Below, piece after piece: positions 2,297 through 64,000 of a DNA stretch of 64,000 nt. The stretch comes from Mustelus asterias (Eukaryota), in the NCBI RefSeq assembly GCF_964213995.1, contig NW_027590141.1, forward strand, positions 434,001 through 498,000, in the 5' to 3' direction. A program made the translations under genes and the position numbers. The notes under the pieces were generated by a model that worked only from the letters and a program-made list of their open reading frames with translations, had not been told where the DNA came from and made no database searches. How positions within the stretch are numbered: position 1 is the stretch's first letter; every line of letters begins with the position of its first letter.

Positions 2297-2800
2297 CACA
2301 ATGCCCGAGTGATTGATGGCAGCTCCGGGCCAATAGGAGGAGGGGGCGGGGCTGGAGGACCAAGCGGAACGGACTGCTCCTCCAACCAATCGGAGTGAAT
2401 GAAGAGGCGGGGCTGGACTGAGTGAAGCATGCGCAGTGTGATTAATGGCGATGGAGAAATTCTTGTTCGGGTCCAAAATCAGAAAAAGGTGAGAATTTGC
2501 TTGTCGGAGGGAGCGGTGGATCAGAGAGGCTTTGTAATCACGATCAGCTTCTGCAAAAAAAACCTACCGATATCCGGGGCTGATCCCAGCCCTTTGCACA
2601 GAGCAGTTTTCTTCCAGTTAGGATCCGGATGAACCGCCACCATTTTTATCTGGGCACACCCAATGGGGAGCATGCGCGGCCGCCATCTTTATTCGGGGCA
2701 CTCGCAGCAGGGCGCATGCGTAGCTGCCATGTTTGTTGGGGGCAATGTTTTGACATCTTCCCAGAGACAGAATGTGAACAACTTGTCCATCACGCATCAA
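2297..2800 (+). promoter_or_regulatory. ZNF promoter module with putative exon 1 (donor GTGAGA at 2489)
   Basis: Two CCAAT boxes, two GGCGGGG GC boxes, NRF1-like GCATGCGC, YY1-like GCCGCCATCTT downstream; CpG-rich; homologous to 15770, 53180 and 63370 modules. Confidence 0.7.
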
Positions 2801-3306
2801 AAGGATATTAATAAGGTTGAAAGAGTGCAGAGAAGGTTTACAAGGATGTTGCCGGGACTTGAGAAACTGAGTTACAGAGAAAGGTTGAATCGGTTGGGAC
2901 TTTATCCCCTGGAGCGTAGAAGAATAAGGGGAGATTTGATAGAGGTGTATAAAATTATGATGGGTATAGATGGAATGAATGCAAGCAGGCTTTTTCCACT
3001 GAGGCTAGGGGAGAAAATAACGAGAGGACATGGGTTAAGGGTGAAGGGGGAAAAGTTTAAAGGGAATATTGGGGGGGGGCTTCTTCACGCAGAGAGTGGT
3101 GGGAGTGTGGAATGAGCTGCCAGATGAAGTGGTGAATGCGGGCTCACTTTTAACATTTAAGAAAAACTTGGACAGGTACATGGATGAGAGGGGTGTGGAG
3201 AGATATGGTCCAGGTGCAGGTCAGTGGGACTAGGCAGAAAAATGGTTCGGCGCAGACAAGAAGGGCCAAAAGGCCTGTTTCTGTGCTGTAAGGTTCTATG
3301 GTTCTA
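2800..3306 (+). mobile_element. CR1 LINE 3' end
   Basis: ERVQRRFTRMLPGLEKLSYRERL..LERRR.RGDLIEVYKIM motif; (gttctatg)n tail. Confidence 0.9.
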
Positions 3307-3454
3307 AACCGTGTCACTCTTTCACTTCCAATTTCTTACTGATGAGGCAGAACAACAATATCAGGGCAGTGAAGATCATTTGTATTCTTATGTGTCTTTA
3401 ACAAAATAAAATAGCCTCAGAAATTTCACAAAATTGTTACAGTTCTTTGAAAAG

Positions 3455-3730
3455 GGGTAGCACAGTGGTCCGCACTGCTGCCTCACAGCTCCAAGGACCC
3501 AGGTTCAATCCAGCCTCGGGTGACTCTGCCTCCTCTTGTCTGTGTGGGGTTTCATCCGGGTGCTCCGGTTTCCTCTCACAGTCCAATGATGTGCAGGTTA
3601 GCTGGATTGGCTATGCTAAATTGCCCCTTAGTGCCCCAAAATGTGTAGGTTGGGGAGGTAATGGTATAAATATGTGGGGTACAGGGATAGGACCTGGGTG
3701 GGATTCTGGGTCAGAGATTCGGTGCAGAGT
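3455..3730 (+). mobile_element. HE1-type V-SINE
   Basis: tRNA-derived head with A/B boxes (ggttcaatcc), V-domain core. Confidence 0.8.
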
Positions 3731-4033
3731 CCAGATCAGTTGACAAATTTCCTTCCCTGAAGGACATGAGTGAATCAATTGAATCCAGCAGCTCTCATAG
3801 TCACTTTTTCCAAGTGCAGGCCCCACATATTACCAGATTCATTCAGCTCAATTTCACAACCTGCCTTTGTGTTTTTGTGGGTTCTCTCTCACTCCCTTTT
3901 TTCTGTTCTCAATTAATTTCACAGGGTTTTAGAAGGGGACGATTTGCAATTGGGAAACTGAAACCAAACATCACATCAGGGACTGATACAGTCGACCAAT
4001 TTATCGTAACCTGAATATTGTCATATTTTGAAC

Positions 4034-5071
4034 ATGGAAGGAAGAAGCTCCATTCATAGCGGAGGGAAACCATACTCGTGTTCTGTGTGTGGACAAGGAT
4101 TCAACCAGTCATCTGACCTGTCAAAACATAAATGCAGTCATGATGGGGAGAAGCCGTGGAAATGTGGGGTCTGTGGGAAGGGATTTAATTACCCATCCCA
4201 GCTGGAAACTCATCAGCGTGGTCACACCGGGGAGAGGCCGTTCACCTGCTCGGACTGCGGGAAAGGATTCACTAAGTCATCCACCCTGCTGACACACCAG
4301 CGCACACACACTGGGCAGAGGCCATTCACCTGCTCTGTGTGTGGGATCGGATTCACTCAATCATCGACACTGCTGACACACCAGCGAATTCACACTGGGG
4401 AGAGACCTTTCACCTGCACTGACTGTGGACAGGGATTCACTCACCAATCCACCCTGCTGACACACCAGCGAGTTCACACTAGGCAGAGACCGTTCACCTG
4501 CTCTGAGTGTGGGAAAGGATTTATTAATTTATCCAACCTGACGACACACCAAAGAAATCACACTGACGAGAGACCGTTTAAATGTCTGGACTGTGGGAAG
4601 TGTTATAAAACCTCTCAGGAACTGATGTACCATCAACAAGTTCACACTGACGAGAGACCGTTCAGGTGCTCTCACTGCGGAACTGGGTTCAAGCGATCAT
4701 CTCATCTCACCGTTCACCAGCGCACTCACACGGGAGATAGACCGTTCACATGCTCTGAGTGTGGGGAAGGATTCACTCAGTCATACATTCTGCTGAGACA
4801 CCAGCGAGTTCACACTGGAGAGAGACCATTCACCTGCTCCAGGTGTGGGAAGAGATTCACTCAATCATCAGCACTGCTAAGACACCAGCGAGTTCACACT
4901 GGGGAGAGGCTGTTCATCTGCAATGATTGTGGGAAGAGATTCACTCAGTCATCCAACCTGCTGACACACCAGCGAGTTCACACCGGGGAGAGACCATTCA
5001 CGTGTTCTGTGTGTGGGATGGGATTTACTCAGACATCCAACCTGCTGAGACACCAGCGAATTCACAATTAA
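4034..5071 (+). CDS. C2H2 zinc-finger protein, 12 fingers, no effector domain seen (ZNF-A)
   Basis: Open ORF from ATG 4034 with CxxC..HxxxH repeats and TGERPF linkers; acceptor ttcacag|G at 3925; AATAAA near 5148. Confidence 0.9.
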
Positions 5072-8805: not shown

Positions 8806-8981
8806 GTTTAGATCAAGTGAAGAAGGAAATTGGTCAGAATCTACAGAGACTGCTGGAGGCAAGGCTGCTGATAAACGTAACCTTTAATTGCACATTCTTC
8901 GAACTATGTACAATACAAGATCGTAAGAAGTTTAACAACACCAGGTTAAAGTCCAACAGGTTTATTTGGTAGCAAAAGCCA

Positions 8982-9018
8982 CACAAGCTTTCGAGGCTCT
9001 GAGCCCCTTCTTCAGGTG
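8982..9018 (-). ncRNA. Minimal type I hammerhead ribozyme motif
   Basis: cac CTGAAGA a ggggct-cag-agcctc GAAA GC TT gtg on minus strand. Confidence 0.8.
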
Positions 9019-9300
9019 AGTGGGAATTCTGTTCACAAACAGAACTTATAAGACACAGACTCAATTTACATGAATAATGGTTGGAATGCGAATACTTACA
9101 ACTAATCCAGTCTTTAAGAAACAAAACAATGGGAGTGGAGAGAGCATCAAGACAGGCTAAAAAGATGTGTATTGTCTCCAGACAAGACAGCCAGTGAAAC
9201 TCTGCAGGTCCACGCAACTGTGGGAGTTACAAATAGTGTGACATAAATTCTGATTCTAGGATCGCATGATAAAGACTCAGGAGGAAAAAAGCAGAAATAT

Positions 9301-10841
9301 TTATGTGAAATAGTGTGACATAAACCCAATATCCCGGTTGAGGCCGTCCTTGTGTGTGCGGAACCTGGCTATCAGTTTCTGCTCCGCGACTCTGCGCTGT
9401 CGTGTGTCGCGAAGGCCGCCTTGGAGAACGCTTACCCGAATATCAGAGGCCGAATGCCCGTGACCGCTGAAGTGCTCCCCAACAGGAAGAGAACAGTCTT
9501 GCCTGGTGATTGTCGAGCGGTGTTCATTCATCCGTTGTCGCAGCGTCTGCATAGTTTCCCCAATGTACCATGCCTCGGGACATCCTTTCTTGCAGCGTAT
9601 CAGGTAGACAACGTTGGCCGAGTTGCAAGAGTATGTACCGTGTACCTGGTGGATGGTGTTCTCACGTGAGATGATGGCATCTGTGTCGATGATCCGGCAC
9701 GTCTTGCAGAGGTTGCTGTGGCAGGGTTGTGTGGTGTCTTGGTCACTGTTCTCCTGAAGGCTGGGTAGTTTGCTGCGGACAATGGTCTGTTTGAGGTTGT
9801 GCGGTTGTTTGAAGGCAAGAAGTGGGGGTGTGGGGATGGCCTTGGCGAGATGTTCGTCTTCATCAATGACATGTTGAAGGCTCCGGAGGAGATGCCGTAG
9901 CTTCTCCGCTCCGGGGAAGTACTGGACAACGAAGGGTACTCTGTCCACTGTGTCCCGTGTTTGTCTTCTGAGGAGGTCGGTGCGATTTTTCGCTGTGGCG
10001 CGTTGGAACTGTTGATCAATGAGTCTAGCGCCATATCCTGTTCTTATGAGGGCATCTTTCAGCGTCTGGAGGTGTCTGTTGCGATCCTCCTCATCCGAGC
10101 AGATCCTGTGTATACGGAGGGCTTGTCCGTAGGGGATGGCTTCTTTAACGTGTTTAGGGTGGAAGCTGGAGAAGTGGAGCATCGTGAGGTTATCCGTGGG
10201 CTTGCGGTACAGTGAGGTGCTGAGGTGACCGTCCTTAATGGAGATGCGCGTGTCCAAGAATGCAACCGATTCCGGAGAGTAGTCTATGGTGAGCCTGATG
10301 GTGGGATGGAACTTGTTGATGTCATCATAGAGTTGTTTCAGTGATTGTTCACCATGAGTCCAAAGGAAGAAAATGTCATCGATGTATCTAGTGTATAGCA
10401 CCGGTTGAAGGTCCCGTGCGGTGAAGAAGTCTTGTTCGAACCTGTGCATGAAGATGTTGGCATATTGAGGTGCAAATTTGGTCCCCATGGCTGTTCCGTG
10501 TGTCTGGATGAAGAACTGGTTGTTGAAGGTGAAGATATTGTGGTCCAGGATGAAGCGGATGAGATGTAAAATTGCATCTGGAAACTGGCAGTTGTTGGCG
10601 CTGAGCACTGAGGCCGTTGCAGCAATGCCATCGTCATGGGGGATGCTGGTGTAGAGTGCTGAGACATCCATTGTGACGAGGAGCGCTCCTGGTTCAACTG
10701 CTCCATGTGTGCCGAGTTTCTGTAGGAAGTCCGTCGTGTCGCGACAAAAGCTGGGGGTTCTTTGTACAATGGGTTTCAGGATGCCCTCGACATAGCCGGA
10801 GAGGTTCTCGCACAGGGTCCCATTGCCCGATACGATGGGAC
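9301..10841 (-). CDS. PLE reverse transcriptase-GIY-YIG endonuclease ORF (N-terminally truncated)
   Basis: RPIVS, MDVSALYTSI, GTAMG, YTRYIDD, linker PCHSNLCKTC, VVYLIRC..WYIGET..RMNEH; residues encoded upstream of 10841 come from the inverted pLTR. Confidence 0.9.
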
Positions 10842-11015
10842 GGCTGTCTTGTCTGGAGACAATACACATCTTTTTAGCCTGTCTTGATGCTCTCTCCACT
10901 CCCATTGTTTTGTTTCTTAAAGACTGGATTAGTTGTAAGTATTCGCATTCCAACCATTATTCATGTAAATTGAGTCTGTGTCTTATAAGTTCTGTTTGTG
11001 AACAGAATTCCCACT

Positions 11016-11052
11016 CACCTGAAGAAGGGGCTCAGAGCCTCGAAAGCTTGTG
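11016..11052 (+). ncRNA. Minimal type I hammerhead ribozyme motif
   Basis: Same motif in the inverted pLTR copy. Confidence 0.8.
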
Positions 11053-13135: not shown

Positions 13136-14446
13136 TCAGTCCTGCATGGGGTTAGCAGCAACAGCAGAATCCAATCCCTGCAGTGACTTGTGAACTTGCT
13201 GGTGTCTCAGCAGATTGGCTGACCGAGCAAATCTCTTCCCACATACGGAGCAGGTGAACGATCTCTCTCCTGTGTGAACCTGCTGGTGTCTCAGCAGGTG
13301 GGATGACTGAGTGAACCTTTTCCCACACATGGAGCAGGTGAATGATCTCTCCCCAGTGTGAATTTGCTGGTGTCTCAGCAGGTCCTTCGTGCTTTTAAAA
13401 CTTTTCTCACAGTCAGAACACTTAAAAGGTCTCTGATCAGTGTGGACCAGTTGATGTGCAATGAGCTGGGGTGGCTGAGTGAATCGTTTCCCACATGTGG
13501 AGCAAGCGAAGGGTTTCTCCCCAGTGTGAATTCGCTCGTGTATCAGAAGGTGGGGCGAATCAGTGAATCCCTTCCCACACACACAGCAAATGAATGTCTT
13601 CTCCCCGGTGTGAACTCGCTGGTGTCTCAGACAGTGGGATGAATGGGTGAATCCCATCCCACACACCGAGCAGGCGAACGGTTTCTCCCCAGTGTGAACT
13701 CGCTGGTGTGTCACCAAATCCTGTTTACTTTTAAAGCTCTTCTCACAGTCAGAACACTGAAATGGTCTCTTATCAGAGTGAACTCGCTGGTGTGTTTGCA
13801 GCTGGGATAAACGTCCGAATCTCCTCTCACACACGGAGCAGGTGAATGGCTTCTCCCCAGTGTGAGTGCGCTGATGGACTTGTAAATCATATTTACTTTT
13901 AAATCTCTTCTCACAGTCAGAACATTGAAATGGTCTCTGATCAGTGTGAACAAGTTGGTGTGTCAGAAGGTGGGATGACTGAGTGAATCCCTTCCCACAC
14001 ACTGAGCAGGTGAACGGTCTCACCGCCATGTGAGTGCGCTGGTGTCTCAGGAGGTCCTTTGTGCTTTTAAAGCTTTTCTCACAATCAGAACACTGAAACA
14101 GTCTCTGATCGGAGTGAACCTGCCGGTGAATCAGGAGGCTTGATAAAGCATGACATCCCCTCCCACATTCGAGGCAGGTGAATGGCCTCTCACCAGTGTG
14201 AACACGCCGGTGTGTATACAGGCTGGATGAGTAAGCAAATCCTTTCCCACACTCAGAGCAGGTGAACGGCCTCTCTCCAGTGTGAATGCGACGATGAATA
14301 TCCAATTCGGACGGGTAATTGAATCCCCTCCCACAGTCCCCACATTTCAATGGTTTCTCTGTGGAGCGGGTGTCCTCATGTGACTCCAGGTTGGATGATG
14401 AGTTGAAGCCACGTTTACACAGAATATGTGTCGGGTCACTACTCAC
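13136..14446 (-). CDS. C2H2 zinc-finger protein, 14 fingers, start uncertain (ZNF-B)
   Basis: 436-codon open frame; first in-frame ATG only at 14029; acceptor ttttgcag|G at 14710. Confidence 0.8.
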   Translation of the reverse strand: MSSDPTHILCKRGFNSSSNLESHEDTRSTEKPLKCGDCGRGFNYPSELDIHRRIHTGERPFTCSECGKGFAYSSSLYTHRRVHTGERPFTCLECGRGCHALSSLLIHRQVHSDQRLFQCSDCEKSFKSTKDLLRHQRTHMAVRPFTCSVCGKGFTQSSHLLTHQLVHTDQRPFQCSDCEKRFKSKYDLQVHQRTHTGEKPFTCSVCERRFGRLSQLQTHQRVHSDKRPFQCSDCEKSFKSKQDLVTHQRVHTGEKPFACSVCGMGFTHSSHCLRHQRVHTGEKTFICCVCGKGFTDSPHLLIHERIHTGEKPFACSTCGKRFTQPPQLIAHQLVHTDQRPFKCSDCEKSFKSTKDLLRHQQIHTGERSFTCSMCGKRFTQSSHLLRHQQVHTGERSFTCSVCGKRFARSANLLRHQQVHKSLQGLDSAVAANPMQD

Positions 14447-14930
14447 TGAGAATGATGTGATTATTTTTCAGACTTGTTAAACCACTTTCCACATTCAGCA
14501 CATTGGAAACTCACAGGTGTGTGTGTGTGTCTAGGTGCTTTTTCAGTCACACTGATGTTTGAAATCTTTGCCCGCAGACAGAATAAACATTTCTCCTTCT
14601 GGAGACAAAGGCTGACGATATTCAGTTTCTGATTAATCAAATCACTGAAACAGATCTTGATGTGAAGTTTGGTTTGAGTTTCATATCTGTAAATCTTGCT
14701 TCATAATATCCTGCAAAAACAATTTATAAATACCATCACTGTCAGTGCAGGATAGAAATTCTGAAATTTCTCTGCAACATATTTTCCTCTCTTGTTCCCC
14801 AAATCTATAAATCCCCGTCCCACACACTCTACCTCCTCCCTGGGCTGAAATCCAAACCCATCTCAACATCTCCACCATTTATTTCCTCCACTCCATTTTC
14901 TCCCTCCCTCTCCTCTGTCTGGGTTCAGTT

Positions 14931-15217
14931 ATTGATGTGGAAATCTCACTAACTGTCCTGGCTGGAGACAATTCACATCTCTTTAACCTGTGCTTAACCC
15001 TCTCTCCACTCACATTGTCTGTACCTTTAACAATTGATTACCTGTAAAGACTCGCATTCCAACCATTATCTTGTAAATTGAGTTTGTGTCAATATATATG
15101 CCCCGTTTATGAACACAAGTCCTACTCACCTGACGAAGGAGCAGTGATCCGAAAGCGAGTGGCTTTTGCTACCAAATAAACCTGTTGGACTTTCACCTGG
15201 TGTTGTGAGACTTCTTA
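14931..15217 (+). mobile_element. Solo Penelope pLTR with hammerhead motif (15127-15160)
   Basis: Homologous to 10842-11111; cac CTGACGA a ggagc..gatcc GAAA; TSD ctgggttcagtt 14919-14930 / 15218-15229. Confidence 0.85.
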
Positions 15218-15576: not shown

Positions 15577-15579
15577 AGC

Positions 15580-16180
15580 CAGGATGGGGCCGTTAACCTG
15601 GGCCTGTTCCCGGGAGGGAGGGAGGGAGAAGCCCCGCAGCTGCAAACCAGGGAGCTGACAATGATTCTGAAGGGTTTGCGGATCCACAAAGTGTTTCCAA
15701 ATCCTCCCAGCCACCGCCTAACGCTGACTCCGCTTCTCCGGGACAAACAAGCGCCAAGGACAGCAATGACACTGCGCATGCTCCACATCACAATGCCCGG
15801 GGACTGATTGACGGCAGCTCGGACCAATAGGAAGAGGGGGCGGGGCTGGAGGACCGAGCGGGAGCGGCTGGTCCTCCAACCAATCGGAGTGAATGAGGGG
15901 CGGGACCTGAAGCATGCGCAGTGCGGGTAATGGCGACGGACGGACGCTTTTAACCTGGAAGCGAGATCAATACGAGGTAGAGGGCGGCGTGCGGGGAATG
16001 ATAAATGTGGCGGGTGGGTGGAGAGACTTTGTAAACATGTTGTTCAAACCCAAACCCCGGAAATGAACTTCCCGGTCCCCCCCTTTGGACCAAATGGAGC
16101 GGCAGCTTGTAGTGTTAGACCCGGGCTGACTGCCGCCATTGAGGCTGCATGTGGGAGGCCAGCAGGGATTGTGATCGGAG
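15580..16180. promoter_or_regulatory. Putative bidirectional ZNF promoter / CpG island
   Basis: Inverted NRF1-like sites ACTGCGCATGCT (15771) and AGCATGCGCAGT (15911) flank two CCAAT and two GC boxes; lies between divergent ZNF units. Confidence 0.75.
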
Positions 16181-17754: not shown

Positions 17755-17940
17755 AAAAGCAAATTACTGCGGATGCTGGAATCTGAAACCAAGAGAGAAA
17801 ATGCTGGAAAATGTCAGCAGGTCTGGCAGCATTTGTAAGGAGAGAAAAGAGCTGATGTTTCTTGTCTCGATGACCCTTTGTCAAAGCTCTGGAACATCAG
17901 TTCTTTTCTCTCCATACAGATGCTGCCACACCTGCTGAGA
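17755..17940. mobile_element. Second Penelope family: pLTR fold-back remnant
   Basis: About 46-bp inverted repeat (17814-17859 / 17893-17938) around a degenerate hammerhead on minus strand. Confidence 0.65.
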
Positions 17941-18478
17941 ATGGGGAGAGAGTGTGTGGAATGGAGATTTACAGCTTTTGGGGAATGAGAGAGGAAAGAA
18001 TGTTCCATAGAAATTGTCTGTTCTGAATTTCTATCCTGTACTGACACTGATGACTTTTGGAAACTCATTTTACAGGATATTGAAAGAGGAACCACAGGCC
18101 GAAATCTCAAACGTCACGTCTCGATCAGACAGAGTCATATTCCTTGGGACCTCAATATCATTGGACTTTGAATCCAGAAGGAGAAGTGATTGTCCAGTCT
18201 GTCAATTTGAAAAGATTTGAAAGGTCAGTGTGAGTGAAAAAGCATCGACACACTGCCACACTCGAGTGAGTGTGTTCCAATGCACTGACTAAAGAACTTT
18301 AACCAGTTACACAGTCTGAATAAATATCACACCATTCACAGCGGGGAGAGACTGTAATCTTGTTCTGTGTGTGGACGAAGTTTCAACTAATTGTCCACCC
18401 AAGAGAGAGGTAAGGACACCTGCACCATGGAGAAACCATGGAAATGTGTGGACTGTAGGAAGAGATACAGATACCCGG
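17940..18478 (+). pseudogene. Truncated ZNF unit (acceptor 18076, leader, first half finger)
   Basis: Direct paralog of 19215-19295 + 20294-20740; stops after MEKPWKCVDCRKRYRYP. Confidence 0.8.
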
Positions 18479-18499: not shown

Positions 18500-18720
18500 T
18501 CTACAGGAGCCTATTGCGCAGGCGCAGTGCTGTATCTGGAGCATGCGCAGTGTCACTTTGCTCGGAGTCCTGTGAATGGGGGAGACGCTTTTTTCAGTGG
18601 GTGAGTCGGTGGGGCTGCGGGAGAAATGGAGCCGGGAGTCGGGGTAGGGAGGGAGCTCTGGCTTCACAAACACCCGCTGTCGGCCGCACAGCCCGAATAG
18701 ACCCTGCAGGTCCAGACATC
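18500..18720 (+). promoter_or_regulatory. CpG-rich promoter / exon 1 candidate for ZNF-C
   Basis: TGCGCAGGCGCA and GCATGCGCA NRF1-like sites; donor GG|GTGAGT at 18601. Confidence 0.55.
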
Positions 18721-19295
18721 TCTTCTCTCAGAGGATTTCTCTTCCACAGGGACCAGTGGAAGCTGAGGATCATTGAATATATTCCAGTTCAACAGATCTT
18801 TGACTGACAAGGGTGTCAAGGATTATGGGGAACAGACAAGAAGATGGAGCAAAAGCTAAGATGTGGGGGGATTTCTTCACTCAAGGATGTGGTAAAGCTT
18901 TGGAATTCTCAATCCCTGAGGACAGTGAAGCCTCAGTCATCAACTATTTTCAAGAGAGAGATTGATTGGTTTCTAGATATTGAAGATATCAAGGGATATG
19001 GGTTGAGTGTGGGGAGAATGATGCTGAGGTAGATGAACGAATTATCTCATTGAATAGTTTAAAAGACTCGATGGGCCAAATGGCCGACTGCAGCTCCTAT
19101 TTGTTATGGTCCCTGTGTCCAGGATAGGAAGCAGTGAGCATGGATCTGTCAATCAGCCTCAATCAGCACCTTCAGGAGAATTGGGAGGGTGAATATTAGA
19201 TACAGCAGAGTGAGAATGGAGGGAGAGTGTGTGGGATGGAGATTTACAGCTTTTGGGGACTGAAATAGGAAAGAATGTTCCATAGAAACTAGAAC

Positions 19296-20286: not shown

Positions 20287-20689
20287 CTAGAACTGTCTGT
20301 TCTGAATTTCTATCCTGTACTGACACTGATGACTTTTGTAAACCCATTTTACAGGATATTGAAAGAGGAATCACAGGCCGAAATCTCAAACGTCACGTCT
20401 AGATCTGACAGAGTCATATTCCTTGGGAGCTGAATATCATCGGACTTTGAATCCAGAAGCAGAAATGATTTGAAAAGATTTCAAACATCAGTATGACTGG
20501 AAAAGTACCAACACACTGCCACACTCGAGTGAGAGTCTACCAGTGCACGGACTAAAGAGTTTCAACCAGTTCCACAGCCTGAATAAATATCACATCATTC
20601 ACAGCGGGGAGAGACTGTACCTGTGTTGTGAGCGTGGACGAGGCTTCAACTGATTGTCCACCCAAGAAAGAGGCAAGGACACCTGCACC

Positions 20690-21364
20690 ATGGAGAAACC
20701 ATGGGAATGTGGGGACTGTGGGAAGAGATACAGTTACCCATCAGAGCTGGAAGCTCATCGGCGCAGCCACACTGGGGAGAGGCCATTCATCTGCTCGCAG
20801 TGTGGGAAGGGATTCATTCAGTCATCCAGCCTGCAGAGACACCAGCAAATTCACACTGGAGAGAGACTGTTCATCTGCTCTCAGTGTGGAAAGGGATTCA
20901 CTCGGTCATCCCACCTGCAGATACACCAGCGAGTTCACACTGGAGAGAGACCGTTCACCTGCTCTCAGTGTGGGAAGGGATTCACTCAGTTATCCAGCCT
21001 GCAGACACACCAGCGAGTTCACACTGGGGAGAAGCCATTCACCTGCTCTCAGTGTGGGGAGGGATTCACTTGTTCATCTAACCTGCAGGTGCACCAGCGA
21101 GTTCACACTGGGGAGAGGCCATTCACCTGCTCTCAGTGTGAGAAGGGATTCATTTGTTTATCCCGCCTGCGGAGGCACCAGCGAGTTCACACTGGGGAGA
21201 AACCATTCACCTGCTCTCAGTGTGGGAAGGGATTCACTGACTCATCCAGCCTGCGGATACACCAGCGAGTTCACACTGGGGAGAGGCCATTCACCTGCTC
21301 TCAGTGTGGGAAGGGATTCAGAGTTTCATCCCAGCTGCTGAGACACCAACAATTTCACGAGTGA
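20690..21364 (+). CDS. C2H2 zinc-finger protein, 8 fingers (ZNF-C)
   Basis: gcaccATGG Kozak start; homogeneous 84-bp finger repeats; acceptor ttttacag|G at 20355. Confidence 0.88.
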
Positions 21365-28315: not shown

Positions 28316-29153
28316 CCTGCAAAGAGACGTTGAGAGCTGTTAGTTTTACAAGTTATCCACGTTTTCAGAGCCATCACTTCATGTCCTGGTTTGAGAAGGA
28401 TGGAGAAGTTAAAGTTCAGCTTTCCTCCTTTTGCTGTAGATCCATACTTTGCTTTTTTATCTTTCTGACTTGTTACATTTTTAATGGTTCATAAACTTTC
28501 TGAATTCACCGTTTAAAATATCCTTTCTTGCCATATGGTTAAGTCACTGGAACCTGGTGTGATTTACGATGAGGGAAGTTATTGTAAACAAGAGAACCCC
28601 CATAAATCTTAGTTCAAACAAATAAAAGTTCTAATAAATGGAATGTTATCCTTTATTCTGAGAGAAATTGAACATAGAAGTAAAGATGTTATGCTCCAGT
28701 TGTGCAGGGCGTTGCTGAGATTGCACCTTGAACACAGGGTACAATTTTGTCTCCTATTAAACAAAGGACATAAATGCATTGGAAGCAGTTCAGAGGAGGT
28801 TCACAAGATTGATTCCCAATCCAGTAATGTGAAACATTAACACTGTTTCTCTCTCCACAGATGCTGCAAGACGTGTTGTGTTTTTCCAGTTCTTTCTGTA
28901 TTTATTTTAGATCTACCTGTAGTGGTAGGAAAAACACTATTTACTATTCAGGATAAAATAAATGTCCTTTCAGTGGAAATGTGTTCTCCCAGGCTCAAAG
29001 AGCATCAGAGAACGAGAAGCAAAGTCGTGAGACCGGCCAGTCCAGCAGAAAGAAACCCTCCGACCCTCCCACTTCACCAACTGTCAGAATGAACATGATT
29101 CAGTCCTGGATGTGATTAACAGCAGCAAGAACAGCAGAATCCAACCCCTGTCA

Positions 29154-29507
<354 letters not shown>

Positions 29508-29724
29508 TGTGATCACACGGGTTGGATCCTGCTGTTATTGTTTCTGCTCTCAATTACATCCAGGATTACATTTTGTTCATTCTCACAGTTAGTCAATGAG
29601 GAGGGTCGGAGGGTTTCTTTCTGCTGGACTGGCCGGTCTCATGACTTTGCCTCCAGTGGGCTGATGCTCTTTGAGTCTTGTTGCGAATACCTGGTTTCAG
29701 ATTTCACACGGATCACAGAGTGAC
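29508..29724 (+). repeat. Orphan copy of the ZNF-C-type 3' UTR
   Basis: Close match to 21360-21576. Confidence 0.85.
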
Positions 29725-29759
29725 GGTGTGAGGAAGTTCAGAGATATTTAGTCAGCATT

Positions 29760-33102: not shown

Positions 33103-34113
33103 TCACTTGTGAACTCGCTGGTGTCTCTGCAGGGAGGATGAAACAGTGAATCTCTTTCCACAGACAGAGCAGATGAATGGTCTCTCCCCAGTGTGAACTC
33201 GCTGATGTCTTTGCAGGTTGGATGCTGTTCTAAATCTCTTTGTGCAGTGAGAGCAGCTGAACGGTCTCTCCTCAGTGTGAATGCGCTGGTGGATCATCAG
33301 TTCCTGAGAGCTTTTGAAGTCGCTCCCACACTCAGAGCATTTAAAGGGTCTCTCCTGGGTGTGAGTGACTGTGTGCGTCGACAGGGCAGATGACTGAGTG
33401 AATCCCTTCCCGCACACAGAGCAGGTAAATGGTTTCTTCCCAGTGTGAACTCGCTGGTGAACCTGCAAGTGTGATGATGTTCTAAACCTTTTTGTGCAGT
33501 GAGAGCAGCTGAACGGTCTCTCCCCGGTGTGAATGCGCTTGTGGACCCTCAGATCTGAAGCATGTTTGAAGGCACTCCCACACTCAGAGCATTTAAAGTG
33601 TCTCTCATTTGTGTGAGTGACTTTGTGACTTAGCAAGTGTGATAACTGAGTGAACACCATCCCACACACACAGCAGGTAAATGGCTTCTCTCCGGTGTGA
33701 ACTCGCTGGTGTGTCCGCAGGTTGGATGACGTTCTAAATCTCTTTGTGCAGTGAGAGCAGCTGAACGGTCTCTCCTCAGTGTGAATGCGCTGGTGGGACA
33801 CCAGTTCTCCAGAGCTTTTGAAACTACTCCCACAGTCAGAGCATTTAAAGGGTCTCTCATTGGTGTGAGTGAAATTGTGACTCAGCAGGTGGGATAACTG
33901 AGTGAATCCTTTCCCACAGTCAGAACAGGTAAATAGTCTCTCCCCCGTGTGAACTCGCTGGTGTCTCTGCAGATTAGGTAAGTCAGTGAATCCCTTCCCA
34001 CACACAGAGCAGGTGAACGGTTTCTCTCCAGTGTGACTGCGTCGATGAACTTCCAACCGAGATGGGACCGTGAATCCCTTCCCACAGTCCCCACATTTCC
34101 ACGGTTTCTCCAT
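33103..34113 (-). CDS. C2H2 zinc-finger protein, 12 fingers (ZNF-D)
   Basis: gcaccATGG start at 34113; open frame; acceptor ttttacag|G at 34472. Confidence 0.9.
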
Positions 34114-34779
34114 GGTGCAGGTGTCCTTGTGACTCTCCAGGTTAAACAATCAGTTAAATCTCTCACAGAACCCGGGTATAGTCTCTCCCCGCTGTGAATG
34201 CTGCGATGTATTTTCAGGCTGTGTAACTGGTTCAAGCTCTTTCCACACTCAGTGCACTGGAACACTCTCACTCTGGTGTGTGTGTGCCTTGGTGCTTTTT
34301 CAGTTGCACTGATGCTTAAAATCTCTTGAAACAGACAGCTGAGAGAAACATTTCTCCCTCTGGATTTAAAGGCCGATGATATTCAGGTCCCAATGAATTG
34401 AGTGACTCTGTCAGACGTTGATGGGACGTTTGGTTTGCGATTTCTGTCTGTAAATCCTCACCATCTGATATCCTGTAAAAAGAATTTACAAAAGTCATCA
34501 GTCAGTACAGGATAGAAATTCAGAACAGACAGTTCTAGTTTCTATGAAACATTCTTTCCTCTCTCATTCCCCAAAAGCTGTAAATCTCCATCCCACACAC
34601 TCTCCCTCCATTCTCGCTCTGCTGTATCTAATATTCACCCTCCCAATTCTCCTGAAGGTGCTGATTGAGGCTGATTGACAGATCCATGCTCACTGCTTCC
34701 TGCCCTGGACACAGAGAGCTGGAAATCTCCATGCAGGCGGCCAGACAGATATATGTCTATCTGACTGGACTAACAATGT

Positions 34780-38664: not shown

Positions 38665-38905
38665 GGGCCTTTCCAGTCACACCGAAACCCGAAATCTTCT
38701 CTCACAGACACAATCGACAAAACTGTTACCTTCCACATTCAGAGGCTGCTAATATTCAGGTTCTGATGTATTGAGTGGCTCCATCAGATCACAATGTGAT
38801 GTTTGATTTGAGTTTCCCATATGTCAATTCTCCACTTCCAGCACTCTGTAAATTTACAGAAACCATCACAGTCAGTCCAGGATAGAAATTCACAACATTC
38901 TCTCC
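38665..38905 (-). pseudogene. Orphan ZNF acceptor/leader relic
   Basis: tttctatcctggactgactgtgatgg..acag|..aactcaaatcaaacatcac..cctgaatatt; no finger array follows. Confidence 0.6.
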
Positions 38906-49128: not shown

Positions 49129-49923
49129 TCACTGAGATTTCTTGTGAATTTGCTGGTGCATTAGCAGGTTGGATAACTGAGTGAATCCCTTTCCACACAC
49201 GGAGCAGGGGAATGGCTTCTCCCCAGTGTGAATTCGCAGGTGTACACTAAGGTCAAATGATCGTCTGAACCCAGTCCCACACTGAGAGCACCTGAACGGT
49301 CTCACGTCAGTGTGAACACGTTGATGGGACAGTAGTTCCCCAGAACTTTTATAGCACTTCCCACAGTCTGGGCAGTTAAAAGGTCTCTCACCAGTGTGAA
49401 CTCGTTGGTGTACAGTGAGGTCAGATGATCGTCTGAATCCAGTCCCACAATGAGAACACCTAAAGGGTCTCTCATCAGTGTGAATGCGTTGATGGGATAT
49501 CAGTTCCCCAGAACTTTTATAACACTTCTTGCAGTCTGAACATTGGAATGGTCTCTCCCCAGTGTGAACTCGCTGGTGTCTCAGCAGATTGGAGGAGTGA
49601 GCAAATCCCTTCCCACACTGGGAGCAAGTGAACGGCCTCTCACCTGTGTGAATGTGTTGGTGTGTCTGCAAGTGGTATGAGTGTGTGAATCCCTTCCCAC
49701 ACTGGGAGCAGGTGAACGGTCTCTCCCCAGTGTGAGTTCGTTGATGAATTTCCAACTTGGATGGGTAATCGAACCCTTTCCCACAGTCCCCACATTTCCA
49801 TGGTTTCTCCCCATTGCGACGGCATTTATGTTCTGACAGGCCAGATGATCGACTGAAGCCTCATCCACACACAGAACATGTGTACGGTTTCTCCCCAGTG
49901 TGAACAGTGTTTTCTCCTTCCAT
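49129..49923 (-). pseudogene. ZNF gene with one in-frame TGA (49861-49863) and 8 intact fingers downstream (ZNF-E), paralog of ZNF-A
   Basis: [26 protein letters not shown]..; acceptor ttcacag|G at 50030. Confidence 0.75.
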
Positions 49924-50229
49924 CTTCAAAATCTGATGATATTCCATTTACGATAAAATCTGTCTGTCTTAGATCCTGATGCGATGTTTGGTTTCAATTT
50001 CCCAACTCCAAATCCTCTCCTTCTAACATCCTGTGAAATAGATTTAAAACAGCAAAATGGGAGTGAGAGAGAACCCACAAAAACACAAAGGCAGATTGTG
50101 AAATTGAGCGGAATGAATCAATCTGAGGTTGATTGGCCATTTGTGGGGCCGGAACGAGGAAAAGGTGACCATGGGAAACTGCTGGATTGTCATAAAAACC
50201 CAACTGGTTCACCTTTATGGGAGGAGCAA

Positions 50230-52629: not shown

Positions 52630-52800
52630 CAATGCTTACGTTCAAATGATGACTACATCCAGGTCGTGATGAGTTGAGTAACAATGTCAGTTTTTGATGT
52701 GACGTTTCATTTGAGATTTGTGTCTGCAAATCCTCTTCTAATACCTGAAAATGAAATGTACAAAAGGCATCACTGTCAGTCGAAAAATGAAATTCAATAA
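52630..52800 (-). pseudogene. Orphan ZNF acceptor/leader relic
   Basis: ttttcag|GTATTAGAAGAGGATTTGCAG.. translating VLEEDLQTQISNETSHQKLT. Confidence 0.65.
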
Positions 52801-53174: not shown

Positions 53175-53660
53175 GTTGATGCAGTTTGATGGACAAGTTG
53201 TCTCCATTCTGAACAATGGGGAACAAGCCCCTCCCACTCATTGACATCTTTGCCCCCTAAAACGATGGCGGCTGCACATGCATACAGCCCCCAATAAAGA
53301 TGGCGGCCGTGAACGTGGCCCGAACTTGAGGAGCTGCAGGGCCGCTCGGTGCAAGCTGGGTCCGTGAAGCTCTTTACCGAGGTTCGCGGCTGACACAACC
53401 TGCTTACGCAGCGTTTCCGTCCACCCGCGAGATCCCTCGCCCCCTCCGTACCGTCAATCACCTCTGACTTATTTCCGAGCCGGAAAAACAGCCCTTCTCC
53501 GTCGCCATTACCCACACTGCGCATGCTCCAGTCAAAGCGGGCCCCGCCCTCATTCGCTCCTATTGGTTGGAGGACCAGCCTCCCCGCTCGGACCTCCAAC
53601 CCCGCCCCTCCTTTTCCCATTGGTCCGCGCTGCAGTCAATCAGCCGGGCATTGTGACAGT
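53175..53660 (-). promoter_or_regulatory. ZNF promoter module with putative exon 1 (donor at 53461)
   Basis: Inverted homolog of 2297-2800, including CCAAT, GC, NRF1-like and YY1-like sites. Confidence 0.7.
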
Positions 53661-57159: not shown

Positions 57160-58365
57160 TCACACATGAAGTCGTCTATGTTTCAGCAGGCTGTAATACT
57201 GATTAAATCCCTTCCCACACATGGAGCAGTTGAAAGGTTTTGCCCCAGTGTGAACTCGCTGGTGTCTCTGCAGGCGGGATGGATCAGTGAATCCCTTCCC
57301 ACACAGGGAGCAGGTGAACGGTTCTGTCGCAGTGTGAGCTCGCTGGTGTTTCAGCATATAGGATGAATCAGTGAATCCCTTCCCACACACAGAGCAGGTG
57401 AACGGCTTCTCCCCAGTGTGAATGCGTTGGTGTCTCAGCAGGCCAGACGACTGAGCGAATCCCTTTCCACACACAGAGCACAGGAACGGCCTCTCCCCGG
57501 TGTGAATGCGTTTGTGTTTCAGCAGATCATCACTTCTTTTAAAGGTCTTATTGCATTCTGAGCATTGAAAAGGTCTCTTATCAGAGTGAATGTGTTGGTG
57601 TTGATTGCAGTAGGAAAACTGAGCAAATCTTTTGCCGCAAATGGAGCAGGAGAACGGCTTCTCCCCTGTGTGAATGCGGCGGTGTCTCCGGAGGCTGGAT
57701 GACTCCATGAAAGCCTTCCCACACACGGAGCAGATGAATGCCTTCTCCCCGGTGTGAATAGGCCGGTGACTCAGCAGATGCTGCAAACAAGTAAATGTTT
57801 TCCCACAAACAGGGCAAACGTATGGCCTCTCCCCAGTGTGAGTGCCCTGGTGTCTCAGCAGACTAATCCTTCTTTTGAAGGTCTTCTCACATTTAAAGCA
57901 TTTAAAATGTCTCTTCTGAAAATGAACCTGTTGGTGAACGGTGCAGTGGGAGGACTGAGTGAATCTCTTCCCACACTGGGAGCAGCTGAATGGCCTGTCC
58001 TTGGTGTGAACTTGTTGGTGCTCAGTGAGATGCACTGAGTCGCTGAACGACTCTCCACACTGAGTGCAGCTGAACGGTCTCTCGTGTGTGTGAAGGAGCT
58101 GGTGCTCTGCAAGGCGGGAGGACTGGCTGAACCTCTTCCCGCAGTGGGAGCAGCTGAACGGTCTCTCGTCAGTGTGAAGGAGCTGGTGTTGGGCCAGTTC
58201 CTCAGAGGTTTCAATGCTTTCCCCAGAGTCAGAGCTTTGAAGAGGCTTCTGAATAATGTGATCGAGTTGGTGAGCCAGCAGGTTGGACGAACACATGAAT
58301 TTCTTCCCACACATGGAGCAGGTGAACGGACTCTCACTGTTGCGAGTTCGCTGTCGTGTCAGCAT
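57160..58365 (-). CDS. C2H2 zinc-finger protein, 13 intact fingers plus degenerate N-terminal fingers (ZNF-F)
   Basis: Open frame 58431-57160; first ATG at 58365; acceptor ttttgcag|G at 58548. Confidence 0.85.
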   Translation of the reverse strand: MLTRQRTRNSESPFTCSMCGKKFMCSSNLLAHQLDHIIQKPLQSSDSGESIETSEELAQHQLLHTDERPFSCSHCGKRFSQSSRLAEHQLLHTHERPFSCTQCGESFSDSVHLTEHQQVHTKDRPFSCSQCGKRFTQSSHCTVHQQVHFQKRHFKCFKCEKTFKRRISLLRHQGTHTGERPYVCPVCGKTFTCLQHLLSHRPIHTGEKAFICSVCGKAFMESSSLRRHRRIHTGEKPFSCSICGKRFAQFSYCNQHQHIHSDKRPFQCSECNKTFKRSDDLLKHKRIHTGERPFLCSVCGKGFAQSSGLLRHQRIHTGEKPFTCSVCGKGFTDSSYMLKHQRAHTATEPFTCSLCGKGFTDPSRLQRHQRVHTGAKPFNCSMCGKGFNQYYSLLKHRRLHV

Positions 58366-58582
58366 GTTTTCCAGCTGTATCAATCCCTCCCCACAGGAGG
58401 AGCAAGGAAACAGATTCTCACCAGTTTCCAACTGAGATGGTCAATTAAATCCCTTCAGATGCACAAATCTTCACATCCCAATGAATTGATTGACTCTGTC
58501 TGACATGAGATTTGATTGTCCAGACTGCAAATCCTCCTCTTCTATTTCCTGCAAAATAAGTTTACAAAGAATTACGTCGCTA

Positions 58583-59014: not shown

Positions 59015-59197
59015 TATCTGTCCTGGACTGACAGTGATGACTTTTGTAAACTCCCTTTGCAGGATAATGGAAAGGAGGATTTACAGCAAGAAAACACAAA
59101 CCAAACATCACGTTGAGATCTGACAGTCACTCGGATCATTAGGAGCTGATTGTTATTGTCTTTGAACAGGGAAGGAGAATTGTTTGTTCTGTCTGTG
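59015..59197 (+). pseudogene. Orphan ZNF acceptor/leader relic
   Basis: ctgacagtgatgacttttgtaaactccctttgcag|GATAATGGAAAGGAGGATTTACAG. Confidence 0.7.
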
Positions 59198-61290: not shown

Positions 61291-61815
61291 TTGTTGGAAG
61301 TGTTGTTTACTCTTATGGGAGAATCTCGGGGTCACTGTTTAAACAAGTGTTGCGCATAGAGACAGCGAATCTTTGGATCTCCATTCCTCAAAAGTAGATA
61401 TATATCTCTTGGGGCTAAAGGGATATTATGGGGGGATGGGTGGGACAAGGGTATTGAATTTGAGGATCAGCCATGACCATAATGAATGGCAGGGAACATT
61501 CAAAGGGCTGAATGGTCTACTTCCGCTTCTATTTTCTATGCATGTTTCTATGTAAACATGAGGAGCTTGGGGCTGAAGTGTAACCAAAAGGCCATACGAC
61601 ATAGGAGCAGAATTAGGTGACTCGGCCCATCGAGGCTGCTTCACCATTCAGTCATGGGCTGATATTTTTCTCATCCCCATTCTCCTACCTTTTCCCCATA
61701 ACCCCTGATCCACTTATTAATCAAGAACCTATCTATCTCTGTCTTAAAGACACTCAATGACCTGGCCTCCACAGCCTTCTGTGGCAAAGAGTTCCACAGA
61801 TTCACCACTCTCTGG

Positions 61816-62630
61816 TGGGCCAGTGGGCTGACGAATGGCAGATGGAGTATAATTTCGACAAATGCGAAGTGATGCATTTTGGTAGATTGAACCAGGACAG
61901 GACTTACTCAGTTAATGGTAGGGCGTTGGGGAGAGTTACAGAACAAAGAGATCTAGGGGTACATATTCATAGCTCCTTGAAAGTGGAGTCACAGGTGGAC
62001 AGAGTGGTGAAGAAGGCACTCAGCATGCTTGGTTTCATCGGTTAGAACATTGAATACAGGAGTTGGAATGTCTTGTTGAAGTTGTACAAGACATTGGTAA
62101 GGCCACACTTGGAATACTGTGTGCAATTCTGGTCACCCTATTATAGAAAGGATAGTATTAAACTAAAAAGAGTGCAGAAAAGATTTAGTAGGATGCTACC
62201 GGGACTTGATGGATTGAGTATAAGGAGAGGCTGAATGGACTGGAACTTTTTTCTCTGGAGCGTAGGAGGCTGAGGGGTGATCTTATAGAAGACTATAAAA
62301 TAATGAGGGGCATAGACAAGGTAGATAGTCAATATCTTTTCCCAAAGGTAGGGGAGTCTAAAACAAGAGGGCACAGGTTTAAGGTGAGAGATACAAAAGT
62401 GTCCAGAGGGGCAATTTGTTCACACAGAGGGTGGTGAGTGTCTGGAACAAGCTGTGGGTACAATTGTATCTTTTAAAAAGCATTTAGATAGTTACATGGG
62501 TACGATGGGAATAGAGGGATATGGGCCAAATGTAGGCAATTGGGATTCGCTTCAGGGGTTTTAAAAAAAAGGGCGGCATGGACAAGTTGGGCCGAAGGGC
62601 CTGTTTCCATGCTGTAAACCTCAATGACTC
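61816..62630 (+). mobile_element. CR1 3' portion nested in another CR1 3' end (61595-61815 and 62631-62815, -)
   Basis: WADEWQMEYNFDKCEVMHFG; ctctgg repeated at both junctions. Confidence 0.88.
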
Positions 62631-62989
62631 TGGCTGAAGAAATTCTTCCTCATCTCTGTTTTAAAGGATCATCCCTTTAGTCTGAGGTTGTGCCCTCTGG
62701 TTCTAGTTTTTCCTACTAGTGGAAACATCCTCTCCACGTCCACTCTGTCCAGGCCTCGCCGTATCCTGTAAGTTTCAATAAATTCCTCCTCAACCTTCTA
62801 AACTCCAACAAGTACAAAAGCCGTGTAACCGCTTCAGGTAAGTATTCCGGGATGCAACCTCTCATACTGAATATGTACATGACCCATTAACTTCTCTCGG
62901 CTGCAAACGTGAGGTGCAGCCTGGGAGTGGGTGAAGCTGTTTGAAAATCTGATGCTCAAATTTAGTCATTTTTCCGAGCACTAGGACCC

Positions 62990-63791
62990 GGTGGGAGCAG
63001 AAACACAAAGACCCGCCCCCTCACGGTTGCGTCACCAAGACACCAGCGCATGCGCTCTGCTCCCTGCTCAATCAAGATGGCAGCTGTTAACCTGAGCTTC
63101 GTCTCGGGAAAAAGACCCGAAACTGCAAACACGGGACCTACGGGCTCATATTCGATGCTTGAGGCCTTTAACAGGTATTTAGAAACCGTCTACGTCCATC
63201 CGCCGGTTCGATTGCTCCCTCTATGTTTCTGCATCCTTACCGGCTGCTGATGAGACACAGGAACTTCTCTCCAGTCGCTGTCACCCGCACTGCGCGTGCT
63301 GCAAACGCCTTTGCTTACTGCGCATGCGCACTTCCTCCCATGCGTGGAACAGGAAACTCTTCCGATTGGTCCGGAGCTGCGCATGTTTCAGGTCCCGCCC
63401 CTCATTCACTCCGATTGGTTAGAGGACCAGCCGCTCCCGCTCGGTCCTCCAGTCCCGCCCCCTCTTCCTATTGGTCCGGAGCTGCCGTCAATCAGCTCCC
63501 ATTGTGATGTGGAGCATGCGCAGTGTCATTGCTGGCCTTGGCGCTTGTTTGTCCCGGAGAAGCGGAGTCAGCGTTAGGCGGTGGCTGGGAGGATTTGGAA
63601 ACACTTTGTGGATCCGCAAACCCTTCAGAATCATTGTCAGCTCCCTGGTTTGCAGCTGCGGGGCTTCTCCCTCCCTCCCTCCCTCCCGGGAACAGGCCCA
63701 GGTTAACGGCCCCATCCTGGCTCAGCCACTGGAGGATGGTTCACATCAGAGGATGGGGGAGGGGGACAATAAATAAGAGGTTACACTTTGG
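62990..63791. promoter_or_regulatory. Putative bidirectional ZNF promoter / CpG island
   Basis: 63370-63791 is an inverted near-copy of 15375-15920; extra GCGCATGCGC and CAAGATGGC sites at 63047-63080 and 63320. Confidence 0.75.
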
Positions 63792-63834
63792 CAGATGGAA
63801 TCCACGTGTACTGTGTATGAGGCTTGAACTGATC

Positions 63835-64000
63835 AACCAACCTGGAGAGAAACAAGGATACCAGCACCACAGAGAAACCGTGTAAATGTGGGGATTGTGG
63901 AAAGGGATTCAAGTATCCATCTCGGCTGGAAATTGATCCACGCAGTCACACTGGAGAGAAACCATTCACCCGCTCTGTATGTGGGAAGGGATTCACTCAG
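63835..64000 (+). pseudogene. Start of a degenerate ZNF array, runs off the window
   Basis: [54 protein letters not shown]; zinc ligands H>D and C>R. Confidence 0.7.

What the first reader, a model, noticed from the sequence alone, without database searches (positions are those of the whole stretch)
2297..64000. Modular, effector-less C2H2 ZNF cassette amplified across the window
Seen: six long finger arrays and several relics share the same parts. These are a ~150-bp promoter core (2297, 15770, 53500, 63370), an acceptor plus leader in ten copies (exon starts 3925, 14710, 18076, 20355, 34472, 38845, 50030, 52744, 58548, 59063), a [23 protein letters not shown] lead finger in most arrays, and a common 3' UTR. 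No KRAB/SCAN/BTB-like sequence is visible in the coding exons. Known: tetrapod KRAB-ZNF clusters evolve by birth and death and repress retroelements. Inference: this may be a chondrichthyan counterpart made of finger-only proteins, sitting among the retroelements it could target.
Basis: partly seen in the sequence, partly recalled or inferred. Interest (0 to 1): 0.75.

Follow-up and report, generated by a model that had tools for sequence, protein, structure and literature searches.

The report
Finger-only zinc-finger genes of sharks
This stretch of shark-like DNA holds six members of a family with over a thousand copies whose reading frames are almost nothing but DNA-reading zinc fingers, with no attached silencing domain; they likely bind repetitive DNA, but their targets and expression are untested.

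Summary
The observation largely holds: six long C2H2 arrays, ten acceptors at the stated bases, four promoter-core copies, a W-lead finger in five of six arrays. The 3' UTR is shared only in part. Finger-only status is now tested: all 66 sampled arrays with a scored acceptor (of 88) carry an in-frame stop between acceptor and first finger. The leader is a neutrally decaying fossil of a spacer plus dead fingers. Zinc-binding residues are under strong purifying selection in four subfamilies (omega 0.05-0.21). The arms-race reading is only partly backed: contact residues are conserved or neutral within young clades (0.15-0.82) and exceed 1 only among older paralogs of one subfamily (1.82, with alignment caveats). 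No binding evidence exists. Corrections: promoters are used in both orientations and come in at least two types; recent growth is by multi-gene segmental duplication; one array is a nonsense-bearing copy. Extras: a near-invariant 150-200-nt intronic element (1,341 exact 35-mer copies), and a 14-finger subfamily kept intact without an upstream AUG. Shark ZNF counts are already in a published supplement. The scan reported this family and the element before on other DNA.

The parts
2292..2454 (+). Promoter core type 1 (two CCAAT boxes, GC boxes, GCATGCGCA; factor names NF-Y/SP1/NRF1 recalled, not tested), upstream of gene G1
   Evidence: 1,510 unscored first-look candidates in the genome
3925..5071 (+). 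G1 coding exon: leader with two in-frame stops, ATG 4034, 345 aa, 12 fingers (MEG-type start)
   Evidence: 10 of 26 unique close paralogs intact at full length
13136..14710 (-). G2 coding exon: 14 fingers, no in-frame AUG until 14029 (after finger 4); candidate CUG start at 14389 (inferred)
   Evidence: 21 of 21 unique paralogs intact
15784..15939 (.). Promoter core type 1 in a CpG-rich patch; read leftwards towards G2, rightwards towards the 18076 relic
14785..14849 (-). Partial (3' core) copy of the conserved intronic element E2 in G2
17935..18477 (+). Relic: partial E2, acceptor 18076, leader, dead fingers, stub of lead finger
18500..18607 (+).
19082..19270 (+). E2 conserved intronic element of G3, cut off from its acceptor by a CR1-like insertion (about 19296-20286)
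20355..21364 (+). G3 coding exon: leader, dead fingers, ATG 20690, 224 aa, 8 fingers (MEKPW-type start)
28827..29751 (.). Relic of 4 fingers with a stop plus 3' UTR (minus strand), abutting an inverted 3' UTR copy (29509-29751 +)
33103..34472 (-). G4 coding exon: leader (fossil frame open for 51 codons), dead fingers, in-frame stop, ATG 34113, 336 aa, 12 fingers
   Evidence: 27 of 28 unique paralogs intact
34557..34749 (-). E2 near-invariant non-coding element; homolog of the RNA-supported donor lies at 34774 (read by eye)
38725..38861 (-). Leader relic (acceptor 38845), no array
49129..50030 (-). G5: ATG 49923, premature TGA at codon 21 private to this copy, then 8 fingers; probable dead copy
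   Evidence: 8 of 8 closest full-length paralogs have an open 264-aa frame
52638..52768 (-). Leader relic (acceptor 52744), no array
53499..53657 (-). Promoter core type 1 facing the 52744 relic and G5
57160..58548 (-). G6 coding exon: diverged leader, ATG 58365, 401 aa, 13 fingers, no W-lead finger
   Evidence: 25 of 25 paralogs intact
59039..59182 (+). Leader relic (acceptor 59063), no array
63377..64000 (+). Promoter core (63377-63510) with a G2-type downstream segment, joined by an apparent deletion to a degenerate lead finger; runs off the window

Best explanation
These are members of an elasmobranch tandem C2H2 zinc-finger family whose finger reading frame lies in one exon behind an in-frame stop, so they are predicted to make finger-only proteins that likely bind repetitive DNA and, if they silence it, would recruit partners through the fingers themselves. 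Shown: the architecture, a neutrally evolving leader, purifying selection on the zinc ligands, dead copies, and co-duplication of neighbouring genes. Inferred: (a) a bidirectional promoter drives short non-coding upstream exon(s) that splice to the conserved acceptor; (b) the leader is the fossil of a longer ancestral N-terminus; (c) specificities diversified between older lineages and are then held while each type is amplified to tens of copies; (d) the targets are repeats or transposons, by analogy with KRAB- and FiNZ-ZNFs only; (e) the invariant face of the W-lead finger is a protein-docking surface. Odds: finger-only architecture about 0.85, repeat or TE control as the main role about 0.4.
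For: In-frame stop between acceptor and first finger in 66 of 66 arrays with a scored acceptor; 57 have an ATG after it, 56 of them with 45 or fewer residues before the first finger. Leader in its fossil frame: normalised N/S 1.02, 15 stop variants, 66 of 84 gap runs not multiples of 3, in 31 genes; open over 120 nt in 14 of 93 copies. No effector Pfam hit. KRAB: 0 hits in 76 of 76 scored genomic candidates. None of the 18 elasmobranch proteins among 120 listed carries KRAB or SCAN. Structural omega 0.08, 0.21, 0.08, 0.05 in G1, G2, G4, G6. Contact omega 1.82 among 13 older G4 relatives (p 3e-5) against 0.15 within the 11-member young clade. G1-G2 pair co-duplicated at 13 of 35 listed G1 loci; G6-G4 at 4 of 14. 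Lead finger: P(+1) in 69, S(+2) in 68, E(+5) in 65 of 73, while -1, 3 and 6 vary. One contig of a presumed RNA run of another organism joins a donor about 305 nt upstream to the acceptor; two others stop aligning at it. The TE-ZNF correlation is reported as independent of accessory domains (PMC10547256, section 10).
Against: No binding, expression or silencing data for this organism. Contact residues are not diversifying in G1 (0.63), G2 (0.82), G6 (0.30, p 0.001 below 1) or young G4 (0.15); the sites with posterior above 0.9 under M2a were all non-contact (0 of 1 in G4, 0 of 3 in G1). The 1.82 value compares arrays with visible finger-register shifts, and recombination is not modelled. Within contact codons alone the G4 test was not significant (p 0.14). 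22 of 88 arrays had no scored acceptor and were not tested; two of them have frames running upstream over a partial leader hit. Two skate gene models carry a leader-like peptide in frame (P0153, P0154). The KRAB search rang in none of its control genomes, so it does not prove absence. The loci were chosen by the lead-finger pattern, which fixes the first ten residues of that finger by construction.
Confidence: 0.6

Rival explanations
1. The proteins are real finger-only factors but have little to do with transposons. The family grows because it lies in unstable, segmentally duplicating chromatin, and members act as ordinary gene regulators, RNA binders or regulators of each other.
For: Contact residues conserved or neutral in all four young clades; amplification by multi-gene blocks; many dead copies. 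PMC10547256 section 10 says TE silencing as primary function is still open and lists other targets.
Against: Contact codons diverge faster than the backbone between older paralogs (with the caveats stated there); purifying selection on contact residues inside young clades argues against pure hitch-hiking.
Confidence: 0.3
2. An ongoing arms race with the CR1, Penelope and SINE elements next to the genes.
For: Contact omega above 1 in the older G4 set; at contact codons raw pN exceeds pS in internal-finger pairs (0.32-0.44 against 0.25-0.37); an open 551-aa Penelope-like ORF lies in the window.
Against: No such signal in three of four subfamilies. The SINE and CR1 pieces laid are very high-copy, so adjacency is expected. 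No target prediction could be run.
Confidence: 0.2
3. A short, unrecognised N-terminal effector (FiNZ-like) is supplied by an upstream exon through an alternative acceptor downstream of the in-frame stop, or by a downstream exon.
For: FiNZ is only 28 aa with no similarity to known domains (PMC10547256 section 4), so Pfam would miss a counterpart. The leader was once coding. E2 holds an exon-like stretch with an ATG. The AUG-less G2 family is still constrained. An earlier scan note (e1-8795615, unchecked) reports a spliced C-terminal tail in one subfamily.
Against: The E2 ORF shows N/S 1.13 with stops and frameshifts and no codon periodicity. Only 8-12 codons usually separate stop and ATG, with no pyrimidine tract seen there. 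The 28 viewed of 30 predicted proteins that carry the leader peptide have unrelated N-termini.
Confidence: 0.12
4. The high copy number is largely assembly artefact (haplotigs and duplicated unplaced scaffolds).
For: Many near-identical copies lie on unplaced contigs of about 1 Mb or less; five leader copies are 100% identical.
Against: Up to 40 listed copies per gene at 94-99% identity on 13-26 contigs exceed two haplotypes; clusters also lie on 74-111 Mb contigs; published counts for other sharks and rays are 703-3,586 ORFs.
Confidence: 0.07

Closest known systems
KRAB zinc-finger genes (KZFPs) of sarcopterygians (features from PMC11603059 passages, and PMC10547256 sections 4 and 10)
   Same: Clustered tandem C2H2 arrays with TGEKP-type linkers in one large 3' exon; birth and death; segmental duplication; variable contact residues between lineages.
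   Different: No KRAB; no upstream coding exon can be in frame through the conserved acceptor; TE binding and corepressor unknown.
FiNZ-ZNFs of cyprinid fish (PMC10547256)
   Same: Lineage-specific expansion to hundreds of genes in a fish lacking KZFPs; positive selection seen only in some clades (4 of 7 there; contact enrichment in 2).
   Different: FiNZ is encoded by a coding exon upstream of the array; here the acidic leader lies in the array exon and is non-coding. TE derepression was shown by knock-down in zebrafish; nothing comparable exists here.
Cephalopod C2H2 expansions (PMC12513265, passages)
   Same: Large lineage-specific C2H2 expansions whose link to transposons is called an open question.
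   Different: Unrelated lineage; the passages seen describe no shared leader, lead finger or intronic element.
RefSeq 'zinc finger protein NNN-like' models of Heterodontus, Amblyraja, Rhinoraja and others
   Same: Same MEKPWKC and MEG/MK starts, same lead finger, same leader peptide in some models: the family is already annotated gene by gene.
   Different: Names are by similarity only; no family description or function is attached.

Membership tests
KRAB-ZNF | N-terminal KRAB domain on an upstream coding exon | tested here: not met
   no Pfam hit; 0 of 76, control silent; in-frame stop in 66 of 66
KRAB-ZNF | Tandem C2H2 array with conserved linkers in a single exon | tested here: met
KRAB-ZNF | Clustered, birth-and-death evolution | tested here: met
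KRAB-ZNF | Positive selection on contact residues -1, 2, 3, 6 | tested here: inconclusive
   omega 0.15-0.82 in young clades, 1.82 in older G4 set
KRAB-ZNF | Binds TEs and recruits TRIM28/H3K9me3 | not testable with these tools
   no binding predictor or chromatin data
FiNZ-ZNF | 28-aa acidic FiNZ domain on a coding exon upstream of the array | tested here: not met
   no in-frame path through the acceptor; E2 and leader non-coding. A FiNZ profile itself was not available.
FiNZ-ZNF | Expression at zygotic genome activation and TE derepression on knock-down | not testable with these tools
   no run on record as RNA held the stretch
SCAN-ZNF | SCAN domain upstream of the fingers | tested here: not met
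   none in the window; 146 genomic SCAN-like hits of 150 scored (604 candidates), none on C71 or C109 or in the C12 and C23 cluster intervals sampled
Dimerising single C2H2 domains (CGx-Phi type, PMC12774644 abstract) | Atypical N-terminal finger that self-associates | not tested

The most novel reading that the evidence does not exclude
Sharks and rays run a repeat-control system of finger-only proteins in which the old N-terminus decayed into a 5' UTR, the invariant face of the W-lead finger took over cofactor recruitment, a near-invariant intronic element coordinates more than a thousand genes, and some subfamilies start translation at CUG.
Probability: 0.15. Interest if true: 0.78.

Novelty: new variant of a known kind. 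Interest (0 to 1): 0.5.

Why it matters
Cartilaginous fishes are reported to lack KRAB families (PMC8455134 passage), yet carry 475-3,586 tandem ZNF ORFs (PMC10547256 supplement). How such proteins could act without an effector is open. The shared acceptor, start context and E2 element make the family testable in bulk, as was done by knock-down for FiNZ-ZNFs. If the lead finger recruits a cofactor, this would be another route to ZNF-based silencing in vertebrates besides KRAB and FiNZ. If not, it is an ordinary lineage expansion with one unexplained conserved element.

Tried and rejected
RNA: no run on record as RNA held the stretch. Contigs of guessed-RNA runs from other organisms were laid twice; depth profiles were not used as evidence. 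Unspliced contigs across the acceptor were also present, so intron retention or DNA cannot be separated. In one search one contig had 392 upstream letters that did not align, which paralog divergence could also explain. E2 as a coding exon: rejected. E2 as a structured RNA: no Rfam hit beyond one chance-level match; single-sequence folding z from -1.6 to +1.7 in 6 genes. A 9-bp hairpin over the 3' splice site paired in 21-30 of 31 genes per position with almost no two-sided changes: inconclusive. E2 selection against gene conversion: unresolved; E2 divergence is unrelated to leader divergence (rho 0.08) and not significantly higher in broken copies (0.035 against 0.018, p 0.13). A protein search with an E2 translation found nothing. 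Leader as a living coding exon: rejected; the first leader test used the wrong frame and was redone. IQ-TREE per-class omega values were not parsed, so my own codon model was used. Nine literature searches listed no paper describing this cassette; most subscription papers are outside the library, and supplement files 3-5 of PMC10547256 were not searched.
Full report
Observation. The window is G000:C109:434001-498000 of a 3.68-Gb genome. Six-frame scanning found six long C2H2 arrays of 12, 14, 8, 12, 8 and 13 fingers (G1-G6), a 4-finger relic with a stop, and a degenerate array start at the right end. The four promoter cores are real and 82-96% identical over aligned bases. The lead finger is present in five of six arrays. 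The 3' UTR is shared only over its first about 35-110 nt in five arrays and has no blastn match in G6.

Scale and mode of growth. An exact lead-finger pattern has 1,139 hits, reversed control 0. Leader and promoter queries gave 1,520 and 1,510 unscored first-look candidates; other queries gave over 6,000, so these numbers are not a cap. G2 and G6 each have at least 40 listed paralogs at 94-99% identity, G4 has 14 at 97% or more, and G5 has 9 full-length ones. The convergent G1-G2 pair recurs at 13 of 35 listed G1 loci and the G6-G4 spacing at 4 of 14 G4 loci. Recent growth is therefore by multi-gene segmental duplication, while the genes within the window are old paralogs (mostly about 65-85% identical).

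Gene anatomy. I fetched 80 loci of 10 kb: 78 chosen from the first 100 listed lead-finger hits and the two flanks of the window. This sample is biased to W-finger genes on the larger contigs. With the window it holds 88 arrays of four or more fingers. Two start classes appear: MEKPW about 390 nt behind the acceptor, and MEG about 110 nt behind it. The type-1 promoter core scored only 21 times, four of them in the window. A second, related promoter with a short exon and a GTGAGT donor dominates the MEKPW class and often occurs as head-to-head pairs. The type-1 core is read in both directions. G4 has neither type upstream inside the window, and G3 probably uses a separate promoter near 18500-18600 (inferred).

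Is there an effector? Of the 88 arrays, 66 had a scored acceptor 100-800 nt upstream. All 66 have an in-frame stop between acceptor and first finger, so no upstream exon spliced there can be fused in frame; 57 have an ATG after the stop and 9 have none. The other 22 were not testable, and two of them have frames running upstream over a partial leader hit. The leader reads as an acidic spacer followed by dead fingers in its best-preserved copies, but it evolves neutrally: N/S 1.02, 15 stop variants, 66 of 84 gap runs out of frame. It is best read as a fossil N-terminus now in the 5' UTR. A profile of six natural copies hit 30 of 1.84 billion representatives. The 28 viewed have unrelated N-termini, the 8 scanned have only finger domains or none, and named ones include Pristiophorus, Heterodontus and Scyliorhinus. 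No KRAB, SCAN or BTB hit was found in the arrays or in 150 of 153 upstream ORFs. Genome-wide, KRAB gave 0 of 76 scored candidates with a silent control. SCAN-like hits exist but none listed lies on C71, C109 or the sampled cluster intervals. None of the 18 elasmobranch proteins among the 120 listed carries KRAB or SCAN. Two skate models keep a leader-like peptide in frame, so exceptions may exist.

Transcription. Evidence is thin. Only guessed-RNA contigs of other organisms were available. On locus L131 one X1 contig joins position 3723 to the first 29 letters of the leader exon, removing about 305 nt between a site where paralogs have GT and the conserved AG (read by eye). Two X2 contigs stop aligning at the acceptor with 31 and 62 further letters. 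Unspliced contigs are present too, and 28 joints were not shown.

Are the proteins functional, and is there an arms race? I fitted my own GY94-type model with shared dS on fixed nucleotide trees, after dropping broken, identical and non-colinear copies (9, 21, 24 and 25 sequences). Structural residues give omega 0.08 (G1), 0.21 (G2), 0.08 (G4) and 0.05 (G6), consistent with parsimony counts: the arrays are under selection as proteins. Contact residues give 0.63, 0.82, 1.46 and 0.30. G4 splits into a young clade at 0.15 (p 2e-5 below 1) and an older set at 1.82 (p 3e-5 above 1), but the older set shows finger-register shifts and recombination is not modelled. M2a beat M1a in G4 and G1 (p 0.003, 0.0005), yet none of the 4 sites with posterior above 0.9 was a contact position. 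The picture is old diversification followed by conservation during amplification, not a sweep in progress. Dead copies are common in the G1 family (10 of 26 unique intact at full length), and the window's G5 carries a private nonsense codon absent from its 8 closest paralogs.

Three unexplained features. (1) The lead finger keeps P(+1), S(+2) and E(+5) in 65-69 of 73 genes while -2, -1, 3 and 6 vary; position 5 is variable in 621 internal fingers. The same finger occurs in Heterodontus, Amblyraja and Rhinoraja models. A docking role is inference only. (2) E2, an element of 150-200 nt ending about 85 nt before the acceptor, has median divergence 0.034 from the majority against 0.132 for the leader, lower in 29 of 31 genes (p 3e-7); these 31 were selected for a full E2 hit, and 28 of 46 MEKPW-type genes have one. 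The gap persists outside CpG-type contexts (0.052 against 0.122). On one tree its length is 1.94 against 4.98 for the leader and 3.07 for the lead finger. A 35-mer has 1,341 exact copies, control 0, with none listed on C1-C11, and one X1 contig matches 129 nt without a difference. It is non-coding and shows no folding signal. Selection and gene conversion were not separated. (3) G2 has no in-frame AUG before finger 5, yet 21 of 21 unique paralogs are intact and fingers 1-4 are constrained (omega 0.57, p 0.045; structural 0.09). A CUG with A at -3 and G at +4 lies nine codons upstream of the lost start. That codon is CTG in 44 of 61 genes and ATG in 2, one of which lacks the usual ATG; a Heterodontus model shows the same swap (P0155). 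A non-AUG start is the simplest reading; alternative splicing is not excluded.

Comparison with what is known. It works like a KRAB- or FiNZ-type tandem ZNF family but is a member of neither. Wells et al. (PMC10547256; passages, sections 4 and 10, supplement rows seen) list 475-3,586 ZNF ORFs for the eight chondrichthyan rows returned but never mention sharks in the main text, and say dozens of such families are uncharacterised. PMC8455134 (passages) notes loss of KRAB families in cartilaginous fishes. PMC11603059, PMC12513265 and PMC11075544 were seen as passages; PMC11620358 and PMC12774644 as abstracts only. Nine searches listed no description of this cassette. Promoter factor names and the Kozak reading are from my own knowledge. 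The scan's earlier notes report the same family at least four times and E2 once on other DNA; I had reached both readings before seeing them, and they are not independent support.

Verdict. A real, large, finger-only ZNF family of sharks and rays: a new variant of a known kind. The architecture is well supported; TE targeting is plausible by analogy but untested, and the selection evidence is mixed. Interest 0.5.

Noticed in passing
window 34557-34749 (-), 19082-19270 (+): Near-invariant non-coding intronic element E2, more conserved than the coding lead finger; 1,341 exact 35-mer copies; function unknown.
   Followed up: yes
window 13136-14467 (-): 14-finger subfamily kept intact and under purifying selection without an in-frame AUG before finger 5; candidate CUG start at 14389.
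   Followed up: partly
window 9301-10956 (-), flanked by 8923-9192 and 10842-11111: Open 551-aa Penelope-like reverse-transcriptase ORF with a 270-bp inverted repeat that is 100% identical, so a young insertion.
   Followed up: no
window 14941-15222: Penelope-end insertion in the G2 upstream region flanked by a 12-bp direct repeat, absent from paralog L052.
   Followed up: no
window 15449-15577: Short CR1-like 3' end inserted just downstream of the G2 promoter, absent from L052 and from the 63370 copy; earlier scan notes report retroelements targeting exon 1 of these genes.
   Followed up: no
proteins P0153, P0154 (skate gene models): A leader-like peptide is in frame with the fingers, suggesting the leader may still be coding in some batoid members.
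   Followed up: no
window 34472-34520 (-) and paralogs: A 9-base stretch about 40 nt upstream of the acceptor is the reverse complement of the 3' splice site in the family majority; almost no compensatory changes.
   Followed up: partly
window 50235-51067 and 16191-16520: 22-bp CpG-rich minisatellite upstream of G5 and a 28-bp minisatellite beside the G2 promoter.
   Followed up: no
G000, many large contigs (L276-L278): 146 dispersed SCAN-like matches, probably retroelement capsid genes (recalled origin of SCAN), away from the sampled ZNF clusters.
   Followed up: no
L228-L246: Several G2 paralogs have one or two tandem duplications of a 60-70-bp part of the promoter core.
   Followed up: no
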